This document shows, piece after piece, positions 27,053 to 33,800 of a stretch of DNA of 64,000 nt. The notes below the pieces were generated by a model. That model had not been told where the DNA came from. It searched no databases and was given only the letters and a program-made list of their open reading frames with translations. The stretch comes from Mobula hypostoma. Its lineage: Eukaryota. The translations under genes and the position numbers were made by a program. Within the stretch, counting starts at the first letter, position 1. The number at the start of each line of letters is the position of its first letter. Where the stretch lies: positions 25,110,001 through 25,174,000 of the forward strand of contig NC_086108.1 in NCBI RefSeq assembly GCF_963921235.1, written 5' to 3'.

Positions 27053-29967
27053 AGTACCCTCCACTTGTTTGGACATATCAAACCAAAGCATTGTTCAAAA
27101 CAAAATACTTTGTTGCTATCCCTGACTCAGCTTAGAAACACATTTTCTCCATCAGTCACATACTATGTAAAGGTAAAACTGCAGCCTGTGCCTAAGTCTC
27201 TAGAAAGGCAAGAGCTATAAGTATATGGCAACACAATTACATCAAAACTTTACACAATATCCCAAACTAGACATATTTTACTATCTGGGTCAAAATCCCT
27301 GGATACCATCTATCAGCAGTGAAGTGTATTTTCGCTACAACTGCAGAAATACTGAAATAATTAAAAAAAAACTATCACCCAATATTCAAGACCATCAAGT
27401 AATGGAGCATAACTGTTAACCTTCCCAGCATTTTCATGTTCAAGAACAAATAGAGTATAACTTCAATACCGTGATGCTCTGGGGGAGGGGTGCACGGTCG
27501 ACCGTCCCCCCCTGCATGTTTAATGACTAGCACGGTTTATTGTTCTGGTGTTAAAATTCTTTTGTAGGATTATGGTGGGAAGATCCAATTCATTTATTGT
27601 TACATTTTAGCTTGTGTTATACTGTTATTCGTTTGTGTATTTGTGGGTCATCCTAACCGTGATTGGGGGGGTGTGTGATAATCACCTCCCACTTCTGGTT
27701 GAGACTGTGGGATTCACTCTCCCGGTCATGGTGCCTGGTCTGTTTTGTGTTTATCACAATAGAACGGTTGTTTAGTTAACGAGCTCTCTTGTCTATCATT
27801 ATGGACCAAATGGTATCAGGAGTGGGATGCGAGATTGACGACGAGATTGAAGAGCTACTACGTCAGATAGTGCCTCAGGATCCAGGGAATAAGATGAGGG
27901 ACCGAGCAATATGCCTCCCCCACCCCCATGGGCAGGTCTCGTGAAGACGAGACCTGGAGGGAGGACCTGGCAACCGAGCATCCTGACTTCCCAGGGATCC
28001 CCGGGAGGCACATCACTCTCCTGAATCGCGACCCGCACCAGGAAATCCAAAACACTCTAGCCATGGGAAGATTGGCACCATGGCAGACTCGGCTAGAGTA
28101 AGAGGAAGACCAAAGGGCCTCGGCGATTTGTGCCTGTACGTCTCAGATACAACGGTACCAGCCACCTGGAGCTTATCTAGCGCAAGTCAAACTTGCCACA
28201 TGGCACAAAAGGTGGAGCCCCACCAAGATGACGGTGCACCTTGCCCTGGCACTGGAGGGAGATGCCCTGCGGGCCCTCCCCGACCTAACGGTGGAGGAGC
28301 AGTGTGAATACAGGGCTCTCGTAGTGGCGTTGCAGTGGCGTTTCAAGCAGAGGCTGTTGGCGGAAGCAATGAGGGAAGAACTGTGCAGCAGACGGCCCGT
28401 ATGGGAGAAAACATGGGGGCGCTTACAGCAGATCTCCGCCACTGTGCTCAGTGAGGCTACCCCTAGTTCCTTCCCGCAGCCCAGGAAGAGTTTGCCCTCC
28501 ACGCCTTTGTAAAGGCATTGACGCCGGAGCGCCTTCGGCATCATGTTTGCCTGACATCACCATCGTCGCTGGACAAGGCGCTGGCTGAGGCGGAGAGGGC
28601 GGAAGCGATTTTAGCCCCCCCCGCCCATGGTGTTCCAGCATCGCCCCGCACGCAGCGAACCCAGGCTTGTGTCACTGAGGCAGAGGAGGAAATGGACAAG
28701 CAGGAGCCCATGAGATGAGTCCAACCACTGCTGGCCTGACCTCGCCTGCGGCCACGAAACAATCTCCACTGATGAGGCAGGTCATTTGGCCCAGGAATGC
28801 CCTGCACCGGCACCACGCCACAGCTCAGAGCAGCCATTGGGAAACGCCAAGCGGGCAGCGCCTCCCGAATCCTCTAGCAGGACCCCTCCATTGTCGCCCC
28901 TCCAGGTGGGCCACTTGGGTAAAGAGCAAGGTTATTACGTGGACTGTGTGGTGGAGGGCATCAGAAGCCGTGCGTTGGTGGACACGGGGTCAACCATCAC
29001 CATCATCCGTCCCGGTGTTCTCCCCAACACGGACTAGCCATCCCCGCCTGGGTGGATAACGATGACGGTCCAATTGGCTACGGTCACCGGTGACTGTGCG
29101 GCAATGTGAGGGAAGAGGAGGCTGCGCATCACAGTGGGGGAAAACACGGTGGAGCACGAGGTATGGCTCGCCAACATCCGAGAGCCCTGCTGTCCCGCTG
29201 GGGGGGGGGGTTGCTGTGTGGAGGTGTCCCGGGCAACACTGTACCTCAGAGCTGAAGCTCCAGGAAGCGGTCCCAGTGGGAGCAGCCACCACCACCGGTT
29301 TCACGACGGCCCCCGGCAGCGGCCCAACGCAACACCGCTGAACCATGGGCAAGCGACGGTGACAGCCAGCGACCACCTCCCCACTGCGGACCACGAGCAG
29401 CTGCGCAGCTGAGCGATTCTGTGCTGGCCCACGTAAGGGAATGGCTGAGTGTGGGATGACAGCTGAGGTGGGCAGAGGTTTCCTCCCTGGACCCAGAGAC
29501 CAAAGCCCTGTACTCACAGTGGGGAACACTGGAGGTGCGCAACGGGTTGCTGTTCAGGCGATCGCAGTTGTCCAATGGTGACAGACACCTCTTGCCTGGT
29601 GCTGCGGTCAGTGCATGGGCTGGTGGGGGCTGGCCATTTCGGGGTTGCAAAAACACTGGGCAGGCTGCGTGAACGCTTCTACTGGCCTGAGTACAGGCAG
29701 GACATGGAGCTGTTCGTGCATAGCGGGAACATTTGCAAGTCCCAGAAGAGGCCGGGCCACCAGTCTAGGGTGCCAGTGCAGCAGTACATGGCGGAGGCCC
29801 CAGTATAGCTCTACTGGCCTTCCCGGAAGAAGGGACTATCTCTCAGGCTGGGAAGACACTGGAAGGGGTCTGGAGGGGTGTTCGACCTCATCTCTGATGT
29901 GGTATATCAGGTGCGGTTGCCTGAGCGGCGGAAGGCAGCCATGTTGCACCGGGACTGGCTGACACCG

Positions 29968-30828
29968 TGTGGTGATATCACGTGCAATGATATGCCAGTA
30001 CATGATTGGACAGAACACTGAGCATGTGTGGGATAGCCAGAAATGTTCCAGCGTGTGGCTGGGTTACGATGTGTTTGTTTATTACTGTAAATAAAAGTTC
30101 TCTAATTCTTCCAGAATATGATACTTTACTGTTAACCCACGGTACATTTAAATAGAAGTAACATAACATGGTGTCAGAAGTGGTTCTGGAAGAATAATAC
30201 GGGAGAATCGAGTATTGACAATAGAAGATAATCGGAAAAAAAAGAGAAGAAAAAATTTCGAACTGTAAATGGTAAAATGGAAGGTTTACAACCCCCACCA
30301 AAACTTCAACTGACTGGCAATGATGAAGTCTCAGCATAAAAAAGAGATTACACAGTTAATGAATGAATTAGATGAAGAAAAGAGGATTCGTATTTCATTA
30401 CAAATGGAAGTGGAAGGAATTAAGAAAGCTACAGTATTGAAGAAGTACAACCCAGATCATACATGGTCCAAACAGAGGAAGGAGCAGTGTTGAAAAGAAA
30501 TTGCAAAGAAAAGCAGAAGAAGCCAACTTCAGAGTTTCAGTTCTCCGACATAGATTTGTTTTGTGGTTAAATAATGTATTTGCTTCGATTAACGTTGTTA
30601 ATTGTCTTTCTTTTTAAGGAAAGGAAGATGTGGTGATATCATGTGCAATGATGTGCCAGTACATGATTGGACAGAGCACTGAGCATGCGTGGGATTGTCA
30701 GAATGTTCCAGCACGTGGCTGGGTTTAGACGTGTTTGTTTATTACTGTAAATAAAAGTTCCCTATTTCTTCCAGAATATGATTCTTTACTGCTAACCCAC
30801 GGTACGTTTAAACAGATGTAACATAACA
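29968..30828 (+). mobile_element. Miniature LTR element (TRIM-like) nested in Gypsy, carrying a host gene fragment
   Basis: LTRs 29968-30168 and 30629-30828 (TGTGG...TAACA); PBS TGGTGTCAGAAGTGG; PPT AAGGAAAGGAAGA; 460-bp interior. Confidence 0.92.
30320..30430 (+). pseudogene. SH3KBP1: Captured fragment resembling the SH3KBP1 (CIN85)/CD2AP-family C-terminal coiled coil
   Basis: Translates [37 protein letters not shown], versus the human CIN85 C-terminus as recalled: [36 protein letters not shown]. Paralog assignment unverified. Confidence 0.78.
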
Positions 30829-33800
30829 AGGCCTTGGCCTCCACAAACCCAGCAAGGCTGAAGGAAGGAAGTGACACTCCAGGTGCGTTGCCCCTTGCCT
30901 CACACAAACAGGCGGCAGTGTGGAAGCCCACCTGGACCTTTGGACTTTGTTATGGACTCTGGGGTTGCTGAGGATGGCTGACAGCTCAGGTGGGAGCAGT
31001 GTGACGCTCTGGGGGGGGGGGGGCGCGCATGGTCCACAGACTGGCCCGCATTTCTAATGACTAGCACTGTTTATTGTTCTTGTGTTAAACTGCATTTGTG
31101 GGATTATGATGGGAAGTTCCAGTTCATTTACTGTTACATTTTAGCTTGGGTTTGGTTATACAGTTATTTGCTTGTGTATTTGTGGGTCACCCTCACTGTA
31201 ACCAGGGTTTCTGATGGTCACTTCCCCCGTCTGTGTGAGACTGTGGGTTTACTCTCTGGGTCATGGTGCCCGGTCTGTTTTGTGTTTATCACAATAAAAT
31301 GGTTAGCAAGCTTCCTTGTCTGTGCTTATGGACCAAATGCTCACCACAATACTTTGTTCTCTGACTTTGGAATACCGATAGTTCAGCATCAGGCTCACCA
31401 GGTAATGTTTTCTGCAATTCCTTTCAGATCACTGGCACCCCAGCACACTCCCTTCCAACTTGCCAGGACCACAGTTCTCATGCCCTCTTTAAACTGACCA
31501 GTATTCCTTTCCCCATAGTTCCATGGAGCTTACTAAAAATTATTATAACACTAGGTAACATCTAAATAGTAGGAAAATTAAACATTGTATTGAGGTATTA
31601 ATCGCAATTATATCCAGAAATCCAAAAAATCAGCCAGTCTGGCAACATCAAAATCCCTAGGGTATGAGATTATCAGAGATTTTCCTTAATCTTAAAAGAA
31701 AATTGCACTGTACCTGAACCACTGGTCCTTGTGGTATTTCTGTGCACTAAATTAGTTCCTTCTCTGATACAAAATTAAAGTCTACTTATCCCAAAAATCT
31801 GAGTTTATATTCCATTTGGATCTATAGCGATTAACTATTCCACTGGTAGTACCTTCAAGTGCATAGATGATCCATAAAATGTGACATTTCAATATACCTA
31901 TGACTGTATCATTTTGTATACACTTATTCAAGAATCAATAAATATTCAGCACCAGACAACAGCAAAAGATTTTCTTTCACAATCATATTAGAGTTAAATA
32001 TTTTAATTGTTAAAGTTACAGAACACAAGATGAATGTCTAACCAAGTAATGCCAGAGGATGATCTTTTAATCAATTAATCTTTTGGTAATTAATTCAGTT
32101 AGGTAACATTTTCAATGGAAGCAAGATTAATTGTAATGGCTTACATTTCCAATAGCAAAATGGATACAAATACCTTCCAGTTCATTATCACTATTCAGGT
32201 ATACATTTTCTGGAAAATGATTAATTGTAAAATAATGAAACACTATTGCTACAAATTACACAGGCACAGGTGATGAACTACATTTCACACCATAAGAAAG
32301 AAAAGCTACTATTTATCTTATGCATTGTATATTAGTTAAACCCTCCAAGGCCTTCTCCTATATAATCAGCAGGCATTTGGAGATTTAACAGCTGTGCTTC
32401 TCTTTTAAATAGGCTTTAAGATGATTATTTTTAGCTGAGTATGTTTAAATTTTGCTAAAGTATGAAAGATTAAATCATTAGCTTCATTGACTGTTCTATA
32501 TTTCAGAGTTAAGGCTTTCTTTTCTGAATTCAACACTATTTGCAATCGTATCAAAAGTCGCTCACTGTGTTTTGCAATTGGTTATAATTTTATTTTATGA
32601 TTTAGCAATAAACATGTGCTCAGCATAATGGTTTAATGGATAAGATCACCGCACAACTGAAATTGAGCCATGCACACACATATCGTTTTATTCCATGAGC
32701 GAAGCAGTGCACGAGCTCTCGCTAGCCTGGTGAATCAATAGGAAAGCCACAGTTTGCCACCAACTAGCCAACAACTCACATCATTGCTATCAACTCAATT
32801 GCTTGCATACGTACAGTGGCTGCCTACGTGTGATGGTCGCAAAATTAGACTTGTTATAATATCCACCTCTACTTGCCCCTTCAGATGATATATAAGATGC
32901 TGTGATATTCCAGGAAAACTCTCCCCATGTTCCTCTGAACCCTGCCCAATAGTTGAAGCTCAGCTAAATTTTCCTGGATCGGAAAGCACCCTTTCTGTGT
33001 TATTATTGTCAGACTTTCTAAGCTACAACTATACAGTTTGCAAACTCCTTATGCCTGCAAAGTGTTTTTCAATGCCTTGATGTTGTGAAAGATTCCAAAG
33101 AACTGAAGTTTTCCTTTCTTACATGTAGTAAAATGTTGAATCTGCTTCGATATACAAGTTCATTCCTCCTTTTCAGATTCATTCAAACCACGTTATAACA
33201 TCATGACTGAATGTCTCGAAGTGCATGTCTTATGCCAGAATCTATAGCAAATGACTGGACAGGATTTGAGAGTCAACATCCATGAAGGAAAGACCAATTG
33301 TGAGATATCAGAACTAACTGCATTTTTTATCAACATGTCCCAGAGAATTTGAAAGATTAGTTTATGCTTTCAGCTGAATTGGCTGAACTTCATTGTGGAA
33401 ACATTTACGTTTTCCATAACTGAAAGATGTATAGGTACTGGGTGGGGAAATGAAGCGGTGACTTTTCCAAAAAGATGCACCTAAGCAACTTTTCATTAAG
33501 GATTAGATGATCTTGACTGTGGTGAGTCTCTATAAAATAATTTATTAACCCTCATGCAGTATATAGATGTGTTAAAAACAGTGGATGTGACAGAGAATCT
33601 ACGGTAGATTGAGAATGTACCCGGCCACTATTCAGCAAATCTTAGCTTGGGACTAACATTTGTGGAAATAGATTTGAAATTTAGACAATTGAGACACAAA
33701 GTAATACACATGCTTTGCAAAATGCAACCCTGAAGTGACTTTAAATTTGGTTTAGGTTTAAAAATGCAAGGAATGGGTAACTCCAAAAGGATGCAGTTCT

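What the first reader, a model, noticed from the sequence alone, without database searches (positions are those of the whole stretch)
29968..30828. Miniature LTR element whose gag-pol is replaced by a captured SH3KBP1/CIN85-like fragment
Seen: two ~200-bp LTRs, PBS and PPT. The interior has three parts: a gag start (ATG 30277, [15 protein letters not shown]); 30319-30430 encoding [37 protein letters not shown]; and an integrase tail ([25 protein letters not shown]). Knowledge (recalled): the middle peptide resembles the C-terminal oligomerising coiled coil of SH3KBP1/CIN85, and LTR elements can capture co-packaged mRNA by RT template switching. Inference: two switches at short microhomologies (AATG at 5', AAAGCT at 3') replaced several kb of gag-pol with host mRNA. 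All cis signals remain, so this may be one member of a mobile gene-fragment family.
Basis: partly seen in the sequence, partly recalled or inferred. Interest (0 to 1): 0.88.

Follow-up and report, generated by a model that had tools for sequence, protein, structure and literature searches.

The report
Dead mini-retrotransposon carrying captured host fragment
This 861-base element is a dead, one-off shrunken copy of a ray jumping-gene family that long ago swapped its copying enzymes for spliced pieces of two host genes (SH3KBP1 and RABEP1) and then multiplied with that cargo, a known kind of accident seen here on an unusually large scale.

Summary
Window 29968-30828 has two LTRs (201 and 200 bp, 91% alike), a PBS complementary to tRNA-Leu, a PPT and a three-part interior. 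The middle part (30319-30429) matches the spliced last three coding exons of this genome's own SH3KBP1 gene at 110 of 111 bases and crosses two exon junctions, so it came from mRNA.

The 3' junction (SH3KBP1 to integrase tail, microhomology AGAAAGC) is a true capture junction, found in at least 114 dispersed copies. The 5' "junction" (AATG) is not a capture site. It is a private internal deletion in an already chimeric, larger non-autonomous Ty3/Gypsy element, gag-(PR)-RABEP1 fragment-SH3KBP1 fragment-integrase tail. That deletion junction occurs once in the 3.48-Gb genome, so the mini form is a singleton, not a family.

The autonomous parent (gag-PR-RT-RH-IN) lacks both host pieces. Two host mRNAs were captured separately, and the resulting elements later recombined. 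All junctions show 4-8 nt microhomology and keep the reading frame.

The mechanism is known (LTR-mediated retroposition, Tan et al. 2016). The family appears undescribed. I found no sign that the cargo is selected.

The parts
29968..30168 (+). 5' LTR (201 bp, TGTGG...ATAACA)
   Evidence: Direct repeat with 30629-30828. The same termini are seen in 21 other copies.
30169..30183 (+). Primer-binding site TGGTGTCAGAAGTGG
   Evidence: Complement of ...CCACTTCTGACA plus CCA, the 3' end of a tRNA-Leu(CAG) gene of this genome (L077).
30277..30321 (+). First 15 codons of gag ([15 protein letters not shown])
   Evidence: In relatives the same start continues as ...TGNVAENWRIFKQQFE....
30319..30322 (+). 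Private deletion junction, microhomology AATG (gag codon 15/16 joined to the middle of the SH3KBP1 piece)
   Evidence: Alignment of gag and coiled-coil DNA of L028, L004, L022 and L002 with the window. The junction 40-mer and 25-mer occur only here in the genome.
30319..30339 (+). Last 21 nt of host SH3KBP1 third-from-last coding exon
   Evidence: 21/21 identical to C18:80906621-80906641. The host exon is followed by GTAAGT.
30340..30403 (+). Whole host SH3KBP1 penultimate coding exon (64 nt)
   Evidence: 63/64 identical to C18:80907729-80907792, which has AG/GT borders in the host. The one difference (30384 G, making K into R) is private to this copy (table 3).
30404..30429 (+). First 26 nt of host SH3KBP1 last coding exon
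   Evidence: 26/26 identical to C18:80909830-80909855. The host continues ACTTCAATCAAAATGA (ALQSK stop).
30423..30429 (+). Capture junction SH3KBP1 to integrase tail, microhomology AGAAAGC
   Evidence: Host ...TTAAGAAAGC|ACTT versus element IN ...ACACAGAAA(C/G)C|TACAGTA (table 7, 79). The junction 31-mer occurs 114 times in the genome at up to 3 mismatches; control 0.
30430..30570 (+). Integrase C-terminal tail remnant ([24 protein letters not shown]...), thrown out of frame by a private 1-nt deletion after 30436
   Evidence: The autonomous-type copy reads ...[35 protein letters not shown]. Other copies have GTACTTG where the window has GTATTG (table 4).
30616..30628 (+). Polypurine tract AAGGAAAGGAAGA
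   Evidence: Abuts the 3' LTR.
30629..30828 (+). 3' LTR (200 bp)
29582..29967 (+). 5' flank: integrase-tail region of an older, GC-rich LTR element into which the mini element is nested
   Evidence: ORFs with an H2C2-like motif and an IN-tail motif. 463 first-look candidates for relatives, with the 40 scored matches at 80-85% identity. Uninterrupted relatives read straight through the site.
30829..31060 (+). 3' flank: continuation of the same older element
   Evidence: Alignment with L074 and L075.

Best explanation
The element is an inert, one-off internal-deletion derivative of a non-autonomous Ty3/Gypsy LTR-retrotransposon family of a ray genome.

In that lineage, reverse transcriptase switched templates at short microhomologies between element RNA and co-packaged spliced host mRNAs. 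Most of pol was replaced in two separate events:
- By SH3KBP1 codons about 462-606 (disordered linker plus the C-terminal coiled coil).
- By RABEP1 codons about 61-172 (N-terminal coiled coil).

The two kinds of chimera then recombined with each other and with the parent. One result was gag-PR-RABEP1(61-152)-SH3KBP1(556-606)-integrase tail. These chimeras kept LTRs, PBS, PPT and gag, and were copied in trans to at least 100-plus places.

The window copy descends from that last type. A further jump or deletion at AATG joined gag codon 15 to the middle of the SH3KBP1 piece. This removed the rest of gag, the RABEP1 piece and the start of the coiled coil. Since then the copy has gained a 1-nt deletion, one substitution in the cargo and about 9% LTR divergence.

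Shown: host origin, splicing, all junction sequences, that the parent lacks the cargo, multiple copies of the capture junctions, and uniqueness of the mini form.

Inferred: RT template switching as the mechanism, the order of events, and whether the last deletion arose during reverse transcription or later in the chromosome.
For: 1. Host origin and splicing.
- The host SH3KBP1 gene lies on C18:80649802-80909871, with exons for aa 1-451 at 81-98% identity to ray SH3KBP1. Its last four coding exons have GT-AG borders.
- The window fragment equals three of these exons joined, 110/111 nt.
- Copies L031-L033 align from nt 59 and L034-L042 from about nt 105 of the spliced CDS, to nt 484-488. They cross all three junctions, and 10 of the 12 align without gaps (1 gap each in L033 and L042).
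- Host RABEP1 exons 3 and 4 lie 9 kb apart on C71. They are contiguous in 13 copies that span nt 2-290.

2. The parent lacks the cargo.
- 11 of 22 loci sharing the window's 5' part run from PR into RT (...VLDSDTESEYSDLMKEYEDLF...). 4 of 22 run into RABEP1 (...VLDGDTELKRQN...). 7 are interrupted or uninformative.
- A 5276-bp autonomous-type copy has RVT_1, RT_RNaseH_2 and Integrase_H2C2 in Gypsy order.

3. Junction microhomologies.
- RT to RABEP1: AGAG.
- RABEP1 to IN: GGAGA.
- RT to SH3KBP1: GCAAGAG (type 1) or GTCATAAA (type 2).
- SH3KBP1 to IN: AGAAAGC.
- RABEP1 to SH3KBP1: GAAG.
- Window deletion: AATG.

4. Amplification.
- The SH3KBP1-IN junction occurs 114 times and the RABEP1-SH3KBP1 junction 119 times at up to 3 mismatches, with reversed-pattern controls 0.
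- 73 of 74 scored SH3KBP1 matches are intronless copies; the other is the host exon.
- A 5-bp TSD is seen in L004 (ACCTG) and, at 4 of 5 positions, in L002.

5. Singleton status. The deletion-junction 40-mer gives 1 hit, itself. The 25-mer gives 2 hits, and the second is a chance 22-nt match.

6. Other species. The same chimeras are annotated as proteins in two stingray species (P0002, P0003, P0040).

7. Age. Contigs from a run labelled as a second organism bridge both ends of this very insertion (records 18 and 23).
Against: - The window copy has no target-site duplication. Uninterrupted relatives of the flanking element read CACCG-TGTC-AGNCC, and the window reads CACCG[element]AGGCC, so 4 nt are missing rather than 5 duplicated. 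I have no good explanation for this.
- The cargo is 99% identical to the host gene while the LTRs differ by 9%. After setting aside CpG sites, about 3 changes are expected and 1 is seen (Poisson P about 0.19), so this is not significant, but it is not what a naive clock predicts.
- Only the best-scoring candidates of each genome search were scored. Copy numbers are therefore lower bounds, and the large first-look counts (9669, 1059, 1704) are unverified.
- The order of the recombination events is inferred from shared junctions, not from a tree.
- Whether the final deletion happened before or after integration is open.
Confidence: 0.88

Rival explanations
1. One reverse-transcription event with two switches (AATG and AAAGCT) replaced gag-pol by SH3KBP1 mRNA and directly created a miniature element, which is itself a mobile family.
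For: Both junctions do show microhomology. All cis signals (LTRs, PBS, PPT) are present.
Against: - The 3' junction is identical by descent with at least 114 copies whose SH3KBP1 piece extends further upstream.
- The window's closest relatives over its 3' half (L002 and L003, 94%) carry RABEP1 and gag upstream of the point where the window jumps.
- The AATG junction is unique in 3.48 Gb.
Confidence: 0.04
2. A processed pseudogene (LINE-mediated retrocopy) of SH3KBP1 or RABEP1 inserted into an LTR element at DNA level, and the carrier was then amplified.
For: LINEs are abundant in this genome. L020, L027 and L030 are interrupted by LINE-like ORFs.
Against: - The host pieces are internal mRNA fragments with no poly(A), no 3' UTR and no flanking duplication.
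- They replace pol sequence rather than interrupt it.
- Every junction lies at a microhomology and keeps the reading frame.
Confidence: 0.03
3. Reverse direction. The coiled coil is native to the retrotransposon, and the host genes acquired it by domestication.
For: None beyond the shared sequence.
Against: - The SH3KBP1 C-terminal coiled coil is present in sharks, chimaera, coelacanth, lungfish, reptiles and mammals, and in human PDB chains.
- In the host it is split by introns.
- Autonomous elements lack it.
- Element copies are closest to ray orthologues and fall off with phylogenetic distance: 96% Mobula, 92% Hemitrygon, 80% sharks.
Confidence: 0.01
4. The coiled-coil cargo is not a passenger. 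It is kept because a multimerising module fused in frame to Gag-PR helps the non-autonomous RNA or protein to compete for, or interfere with, the parent's particles.
For: - All six capture or recombination junctions examined keep both partners' native frames.
- ORFs of up to 563 aa run gag-PR-cargo-IN tail (L034).
- 42 of 74 scored matches have no stop in the cargo.
- Both captured genes contribute coiled coils, and the RABEP1 piece was patched with the SH3KBP1 coil.
- Earlier notes of this scan report SUDS3, RBM25 and a myosin rod captured by Gypsy elements in this genome. These notes are unchecked.
Against: - pN/pS among copies is 0.84-0.85 for the SH3KBP1 piece and 0.54-0.71 for RABEP1. Against the host it is 0.62 and 0.49.
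- The copies were picked by protein score, which by itself pushes these ratios below 1.
- Purine-rich coiled-coil codons may simply offer more microhomology.
- Many copies have lost parts of the coil (the AGTGAAGG variant; the window itself).
Confidence: 0.12

Closest known systems
LTR-mediated retrocopies / chimeric retrogenes of animals (Tan et al. 2016, Genome Res 26:1663, PMC5131818; abstract and found passages read)
   Same: - An intronless host mRNA piece replaces part of the internal ORFs of an LTR element.
- Microsimilarity lies at the fusion points (their median is 6 bp; here 4-8).
- Chimeras of two parental genes occur.
- In-frame products occur.
- The chimera acts as a non-autonomous element and is retroposed again.
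   Different: - Their cases are mostly single or few-copy young retrocopies in fly, mosquito, zebrafish, chicken and mammals.
- Here each capture junction is present in more than 100 dispersed copies of a cartilaginous fish.
- The two cargo types have recombined with each other, and the family occurs in several ray species.
Maize Bs1 (LTR element carrying fragments of three host genes; known to me only as cited in PMC5131818)
   Same: A non-autonomous LTR element whose interior is a patchwork of several unlinked host gene fragments, still flanked by LTRs and able to be copied.
   Different: Bs1 is a low-copy plant element. Its details are recalled or cited, and I did not read the primary papers.
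Acutely transforming retroviruses (for example v-src capture; recalled, and cited in PMC5131818)
   Same: A host mRNA is captured by RT template switching at microhomology. Viral genes are lost and the element depends on a helper.
   Different: Here the events are in the germ line and endogenous, nothing suggests an oncogenic or other selected function, and the element is Gypsy-type rather than retroviral.
TRIM / small non-autonomous LTR elements (recalled)
   Same: Total size under 1 kb, LTRs of about 200 bp, PBS and PPT, no coding capacity.
   Different: TRIMs are multi-copy mobile families. This mini form is a single copy made by deletion.
SH3KBP1/CIN85 C-terminal coiled coil (PDB 5abs, 2n64)
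   Same: 25 of 36 residues are identical to the human chain. At DNA level, 110 of 111 bases match this genome's own gene.
   Different: The window holds only the last 36-37 of the roughly 51 coiled-coil codons carried by its relatives, with no in-frame start. It is a relic, not a gene.

Membership tests
Ty3/Gypsy LTR retrotransposon (non-autonomous derivative) | Two direct LTRs ending TG...CA | tested here: met
   29968-30168 and 30629-30828, TGTGG...ATAACA, 91% identical.
Ty3/Gypsy LTR retrotransposon (non-autonomous derivative) | PBS complementary to a tRNA 3' end directly after the 5' LTR, and a PPT directly before the 3' LTR | tested here: met
   15-nt complement to tRNA-Leu(CAG) plus CCA. 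PPT at 30616-30628.
Ty3/Gypsy LTR retrotransposon (non-autonomous derivative) | Autonomous relatives with the same LTRs encode gag-PR-RT-RNaseH-IN in that order | tested here: met
   L010+L072: a CCHC gag, a DTGA protease motif, then Pfam RVT_1, RT_RNaseH_2 and Integrase_H2C2 in order. That copy is itself decayed and interrupted.
Ty3/Gypsy LTR retrotransposon (non-autonomous derivative) | Target-site duplication (5 bp in this family) | tested here: not met
   L004 has ACCTG/ACCTG and L002 has GTTGT/GTAGT. The window copy has CACCG versus AGGCC, and 4 nt of the target are missing.
LTR-mediated retrocopy (Tan et al. 2016) | The internal host-derived sequence lacks the parental introns | tested here: met
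   Two exon junctions are crossed in the window and three in larger copies. The RABEP1 exon 3/4 junction is also crossed.
LTR-mediated retrocopy (Tan et al. 2016) | The host piece replaces part of the element's ORFs, with microsimilarity at both fusion points | tested here: met
   This holds for the family's capture junctions. The window's own 5' junction is a later deletion.
LTR-mediated retrocopy (Tan et al. 2016) | Secondary retroposition of the chimera | tested here: met
   114 and 119 dispersed copies of two junctions, controls 0, and a TSD in L004. Not met for the mini form, which has 1 copy.
TRIM-like miniature LTR family | Many dispersed copies of the miniature structure itself | tested here: not met
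   The junction 40-mer and 25-mer are unique apart from one chance hit.
SH3KBP1/CIN85 coiled coil | Sequence homology to the C-terminal coiled coil | tested here: met
   E = 1.1e-9 to 5abs_A, and 110/111 nt to the host exons.
SH3KBP1/CIN85 coiled coil | Forms the oligomer described for CIN85 | not tested
   No fold or complex job was run. The window fragment is truncated and has no usable frame.

The most novel reading that the evidence does not exclude
This ray Gypsy lineage behaves as a vertebrate 'Pack-LTR'. It repeatedly swaps pol for in-frame host coiled-coil or charged-helix segments: SH3KBP1 and RABEP1 shown here, and SUDS3, RBM25 and a myosin rod according to unchecked earlier notes on the same genome. 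The resulting Gag-PR-coil fusions spread because the oligomerising tail helps them exploit, or poison, the parent's particles. On this reading cargo choice is selected, not random.
Probability: 0.12. Interest if true: 0.75.

Novelty: new member of a known kind. Interest (0 to 1): 0.45.

Why it matters
The window element itself is a dead relic and matters little. The family behind it matters for four reasons.

- It is a clear vertebrate case of LTR-mediated capture of spliced host mRNA followed by amplification to hundreds of copies. Two unrelated host genes are fused in frame, which amounts to exon shuffling.
- All junctions can be read at base level, so it gives a clean record of RT template switching and of recombination among co-packaged non-autonomous RNAs.
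- It already contaminates gene annotation. Element ORFs are on record as "rab GTPase-binding effector protein 1-like" or "uncharacterized protein" in stingray genomes (P0002, P0003, P0040).
- Earlier notes of this scan report other captured genes in the same genome. Together these suggest that gene-fragment capture by Gypsy elements is unusually common in rays, which a genome-wide census could test.

Tried and rejected
- **RNA evidence:** no RNA holder was listed for the stretch. One run guessed to be RNA (X16) gave 45 short contigs on LTR, gag start, cargo and IN tail. At least one of them runs on into intact gag, and the cargo contig could equally be host SH3KBP1 mRNA. Nothing can be said about transcription of this copy.
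- **Deletion junction in the second organism:** no contig that bridges 30322 was shown, so the deletion cannot be dated.
- **TSD from L044:** this copy of the flanking element is too diverged (69%) and has its own gap at the site. Closer copies were fetched instead.
- **Second 25-mer hit at C1:189711047:** only 22 nt are alike and nothing else is, so it is a chance match.
- **Selection on the cargo:** pN/pS is 0.49-0.85, but the sample was chosen by protein score, so this is not evidence either way.
- **Rfam on 28000-33000:** no family found. ARAGORN on the window: no tRNA.
- **Pfam on gag and on the IN tail:** nothing above threshold; only protease hits below cut-off for L034.
- **Earlier-findings look-ups near the window and by sequence:** nothing.
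- **Literature searches:** four word searches covering SH3KBP1 or rabaptin with retrotransposon, elasmobranch, and host-gene-fragment LTR families. No paper on this family appeared in the listings. Only Tan et al. 2016 is relevant.
- **Whole-genome census:** not possible.
Full report
**What is in the window.** Positions 29968-30828 hold a complete miniature LTR structure.
- The LTRs are 29968-30168 and 30629-30828 (201 and 200 bp). They begin TGTGG and end ATAACA, as do the LTRs of 21 other copies of the family that I inspected. They differ at 18 positions plus one indel (K2P 0.097), and 7 of the 18 differences are in CpG context.
- Directly after the 5' LTR lies TGGTGTCAGAAGTGG. A tRNA-Leu(CAG) gene of this genome ends ...CCACTTCTGACA, so with the added CCA the PBS is a 15-nt perfect complement.
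- AAGGAAAGGAAGA abuts the 3' LTR.

**The SH3KBP1 claim.**
- phmmer of the 38-residue peptide against all PDB chains finds the SH3KBP1 coiled coil (5abs_A at E = 1.1e-9, 2n64_A at 1.2e-9; 25 of 36 residues identical). The next hit is at E = 0.077.
- The window lies in a 3.48-Gb genome of 200 contigs.
- Its SH3KBP1 gene is on contig C18. Exons for residues 1-451 are spread over 250 kb and are 81-98% identical to a stingray SH3KBP1. The last four coding exons, with AG/GT borders, lie at C18:80902064-80902210, 80906391-80906641, 80907729-80907792 and 80909830-80909871.
- Window 30319-30339 equals the last 21 nt of the second of these exons (21/21). Window 30340-30403 equals the whole third (63/64). 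Window 30404-30429 equals the first 26 nt of the last (26/26).
- Two exon junctions are therefore crossed without a base of intron. The source was spliced SH3KBP1 mRNA, not a paralogue. A CD2AP-like locus on C2 is only 60% identical in the first SH3 exon.

**The window copy is a shrunken member of a larger chimeric family.**
- Searching the genome with the element gave 1704 first-look candidates, of which 40 were scored.
- Most scored matches cover only the 5' part up to window 30322. A few cover only the part from 30319 onward.
- In loci L002, L004, L022, L028 and L029 the two parts lie 0.6-1.4 kb apart.
- The intervening DNA encodes the rest of gag with a CCHC knuckle, in some copies the protease (DTGA), and then a long helical region ...ADMENIKAVAAVSETTKQEAIDDVKKQW...[28 protein letters not shown]....
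- A protein search showed that this region is a chimera of two host genes. Its first two thirds are RABEP1 (rabaptin-5) residues about 61-152, 79-81% identical to ray RABEP1, with Pfam Rabaptin at E = 6.7e-31. The rest is SH3KBP1 residues 556-606.
- Host RABEP1 is on C71. Its exons 3 and 4 lie 9 kb apart but are contiguous in the element copies.

**The parent lacks the cargo.**
- Of the 22 loci L009-L030 that share the window's 5' part, 11 run from the protease into reverse transcriptase (...LNLVKRILVLDSDTESEYSDLMKEYEDLFKGLGCLPGEH...). Four run from the same point into RABEP1 (...VLDGDTELKRQNVALQ...). Seven are interrupted or end too early to tell.
- One autonomous-type copy (L010 plus L072, 5276 bp, itself decayed and interrupted by another element) has RVT_1, RT_RNaseH_2 and Integrase_H2C2 in Gypsy order.
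- Its integrase ends ...[35 protein letters not shown]..., which is the tail seen in the window.

**A second, SH3KBP1-only sister group.**
- Searching the genome with a stingray SH3KBP1 gave 9669 first-look candidates. Of the 74 scored matches, 73 are intronless stretches covering residues about 461-608 at 69-91% identity, and one is the host exon. 42 of the 74 have no stop inside.
- These belong to a sister subfamily of the same Gypsy lineage with the structure gag-PR-(start of RT)-SH3KBP1 linker and coil-integrase tail. Open frames reach 563 aa (L034).
- Three of the twelve fetched loci (L031-L033) start the cargo at CDS nt 59. Nine start at nt 104-110.
- There are also RABEP1-only elements (L044, L045: RABEP1 nt 2-340 joined to the integrase at GQG|D(K/E)VRIQDKMNT).
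- A further type has an SH3KBP1 patch sitting inside the RABEP1 piece (L046, L048, L049, L050, L053). This is the same structure as the annotated stingray protein P0002.

**Junctions at base level.** The last column gives the bases that both partners share at the join.

| Junction | Upstream partner | Downstream partner | Shared |
|---|---|---|---|
| RT to RABEP1 | parent GACACAGAG\|TCAG | host exon 3 AAGAG\|CTGAAG | AGAG |
| RABEP1 to IN | host CAAGGAGA\|AAAC | parent CAGGGAGA\|TGAA | GGAGA |
| RT to SH3KBP1, type 1 | parent ...GCAAGAG | host ...GCAAGAG | GCAAGAG |
| RT to SH3KBP1, type 2 | parent ...GTCATAAA | host ...GTCATAAA | GTCATAAA |
| SH3KBP1 to IN | host TTAAGAAAGC\|ACTT | element ACAGAAA(C/G)C\|TACAG | AGAAAGC where the integrase reads TQKA |
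| RABEP1 to SH3KBP1 | host RABEP1 AAGGAAG\|CAGTGG | host SH3KBP1 TTGAAG\|AAGTGAAAG | GAAG |

- All of these keep both partners' native reading frames.
- The SH3KBP1-IN 31-mer occurs 114 times and the RABEP1-SH3KBP1 34-mer 119 times at up to 3 mismatches, on many contigs. The reversed-pattern controls give 0.
- The family makes 5-bp target duplications: L004 has ACCTG on both sides, and L002 has GTTGT/GTAGT.

**What happened to the window copy.**
- Its gag reads ...CTGACTGGCAATG and then continues ATGAAGTCT..., which in relatives follows ...ATTGAAATG. Four shared bases (AATG) mark a deletion that joined gag codon 15 to the middle of the coil.
- This junction is unique. The 40-mer at up to 3 mismatches finds only the window. 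The 25-mer finds one more place, which shares 22 bases and nothing else.
- The copy also has a private 1-nt deletion just after the capture junction (GTACTTG to GTATTG), which is why the integrase tail is in another frame. It has one private substitution in the cargo (30384).
- It sits inside the integrase-tail region of an older GC-rich LTR element.
- Two uninterrupted relatives of that older element read CACCG-TGTC-AGNCC across the site. The window reads CACCG[element]AGGCC. There is thus no target duplication, and four bases are missing. This is unexplained.
- Contigs of a run labelled as a second organism bridge both ends of the insertion (29909-30014 with 3 differences; 30776-30875 with 1). 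The insertion is therefore shared beyond the assembled individual.

**Mechanism.** The anatomy fits LTR-mediated retroposition as described by Tan et al. 2016 (PMC5131818; abstract and found passages read).
- RT copying element RNA switches at a short similarity onto a co-packaged cellular mRNA and back. The chimera then behaves as a non-autonomous element.
- Shown here: origin, splicing, junctions, absence from the parent, and amplification.
- Inferred: that the switches happened during reverse transcription; the order of events (two separate captures, then recombination, then deletions); and whether the window's last deletion arose in cDNA or later in the chromosome.
- Nucleotide identity to the host CDS is 87-99% for SH3KBP1 pieces and 87-97% for RABEP1 pieces. 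Pooled synonymous difference is 0.051 and 0.086, which hints that the RABEP1 capture is the older.

**Is the cargo functional?**
- Frame-keeping at every junction and the long ORFs are suggestive.
- However, pN/pS is 0.62 and 0.49 against the host and 0.54-0.85 among copies. The copies were chosen by protein score, which biases these values downward.
- I therefore see no evidence of selection.
- Earlier notes of this scan report Gypsy elements in the same genome carrying SUDS3, RBM25 and a myosin rod. I did not check them, and they are leads only.

**Comparison and novelty.**
- The kind is known: LTR-mediated retrocopies; Bs1 in maize, as cited in PMC5131818; retroviral oncogene capture, recalled.
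- Four literature searches listed no paper on SH3KBP1 or rabaptin capture by retrotransposons, or on such families in elasmobranchs.
- Element ORFs are annotated as host-like proteins in two stingray species.
- I class this as a new member of a known kind. The window element is ordinary debris, and the family is a good, large example.

Noticed in passing
window 28000-29967 and 30829-31500: The mini element is nested in an older, GC-rich (about 60%) internally deleted LTR element with gag-like, protease (DTGS), integrase zinc-finger (HFGVAKT...) and IN-tail ORFs. Searching with its 268 nt next to the insertion (29700-29967) gave 463 first-look candidates; the scored matches are 80-85% identical.
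   Followed up: partly
L028:2996-3185: One RABEP1+SH3KBP1 copy carries a different 190-nt stretch after the coil (...DRKDTVQTEAGKQIAEEDSMNCLPEIPDSIQEACESIPK...) that keeps the frame open to the end of the interior. Its origin is unknown; it may be a third captured fragment.
   Followed up: no
P0002, P0003, P0040: Public annotation of two stingray species lists ORFs of this element family as 'rab GTPase-binding effector protein 1-like' or 'uncharacterized protein'. This is annotation contamination by a transposon.
   Followed up: partly
G000:C1:168384911-168430215: Three copies of the SH3KBP1-carrying element lie within 45 kb. Two have identical scores and stops, which suggests a local segmental duplication that includes the element.
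   Followed up: no
one search list (e.g. C1:225324784, C9:56486053, C12:74693623): At least nine listed copies share the variant AGTGAAGGAATTAAGAAAGC. It looks like a recurrent or inherited deletion of the whole coil core between two GAAGGAATT repeats (VKELRS... to ...VEGIKKA).
   Followed up: no
G000 contigs C116, C186, C192: Clusters of near-identical hits to a tRNA-Leu 3'-end pattern lie 1-5 kb apart, probably tandem tRNA gene arrays.
   Followed up: no
window 29191-29210 and 31002-31021: Runs of 11 G are preceded by similar bases on both sides of the insertion, inside the older element.
   Followed up: no
table 5/5c (joint 30369 to 30521): Contigs of three runs, one of them guessed to be RNA, join the coil at 30369 to 30521 through about 29 other bases (GCGATTTCTTCTCAAAGACCT...). 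This is another abundant structural variant of the family.
   Followed up: no
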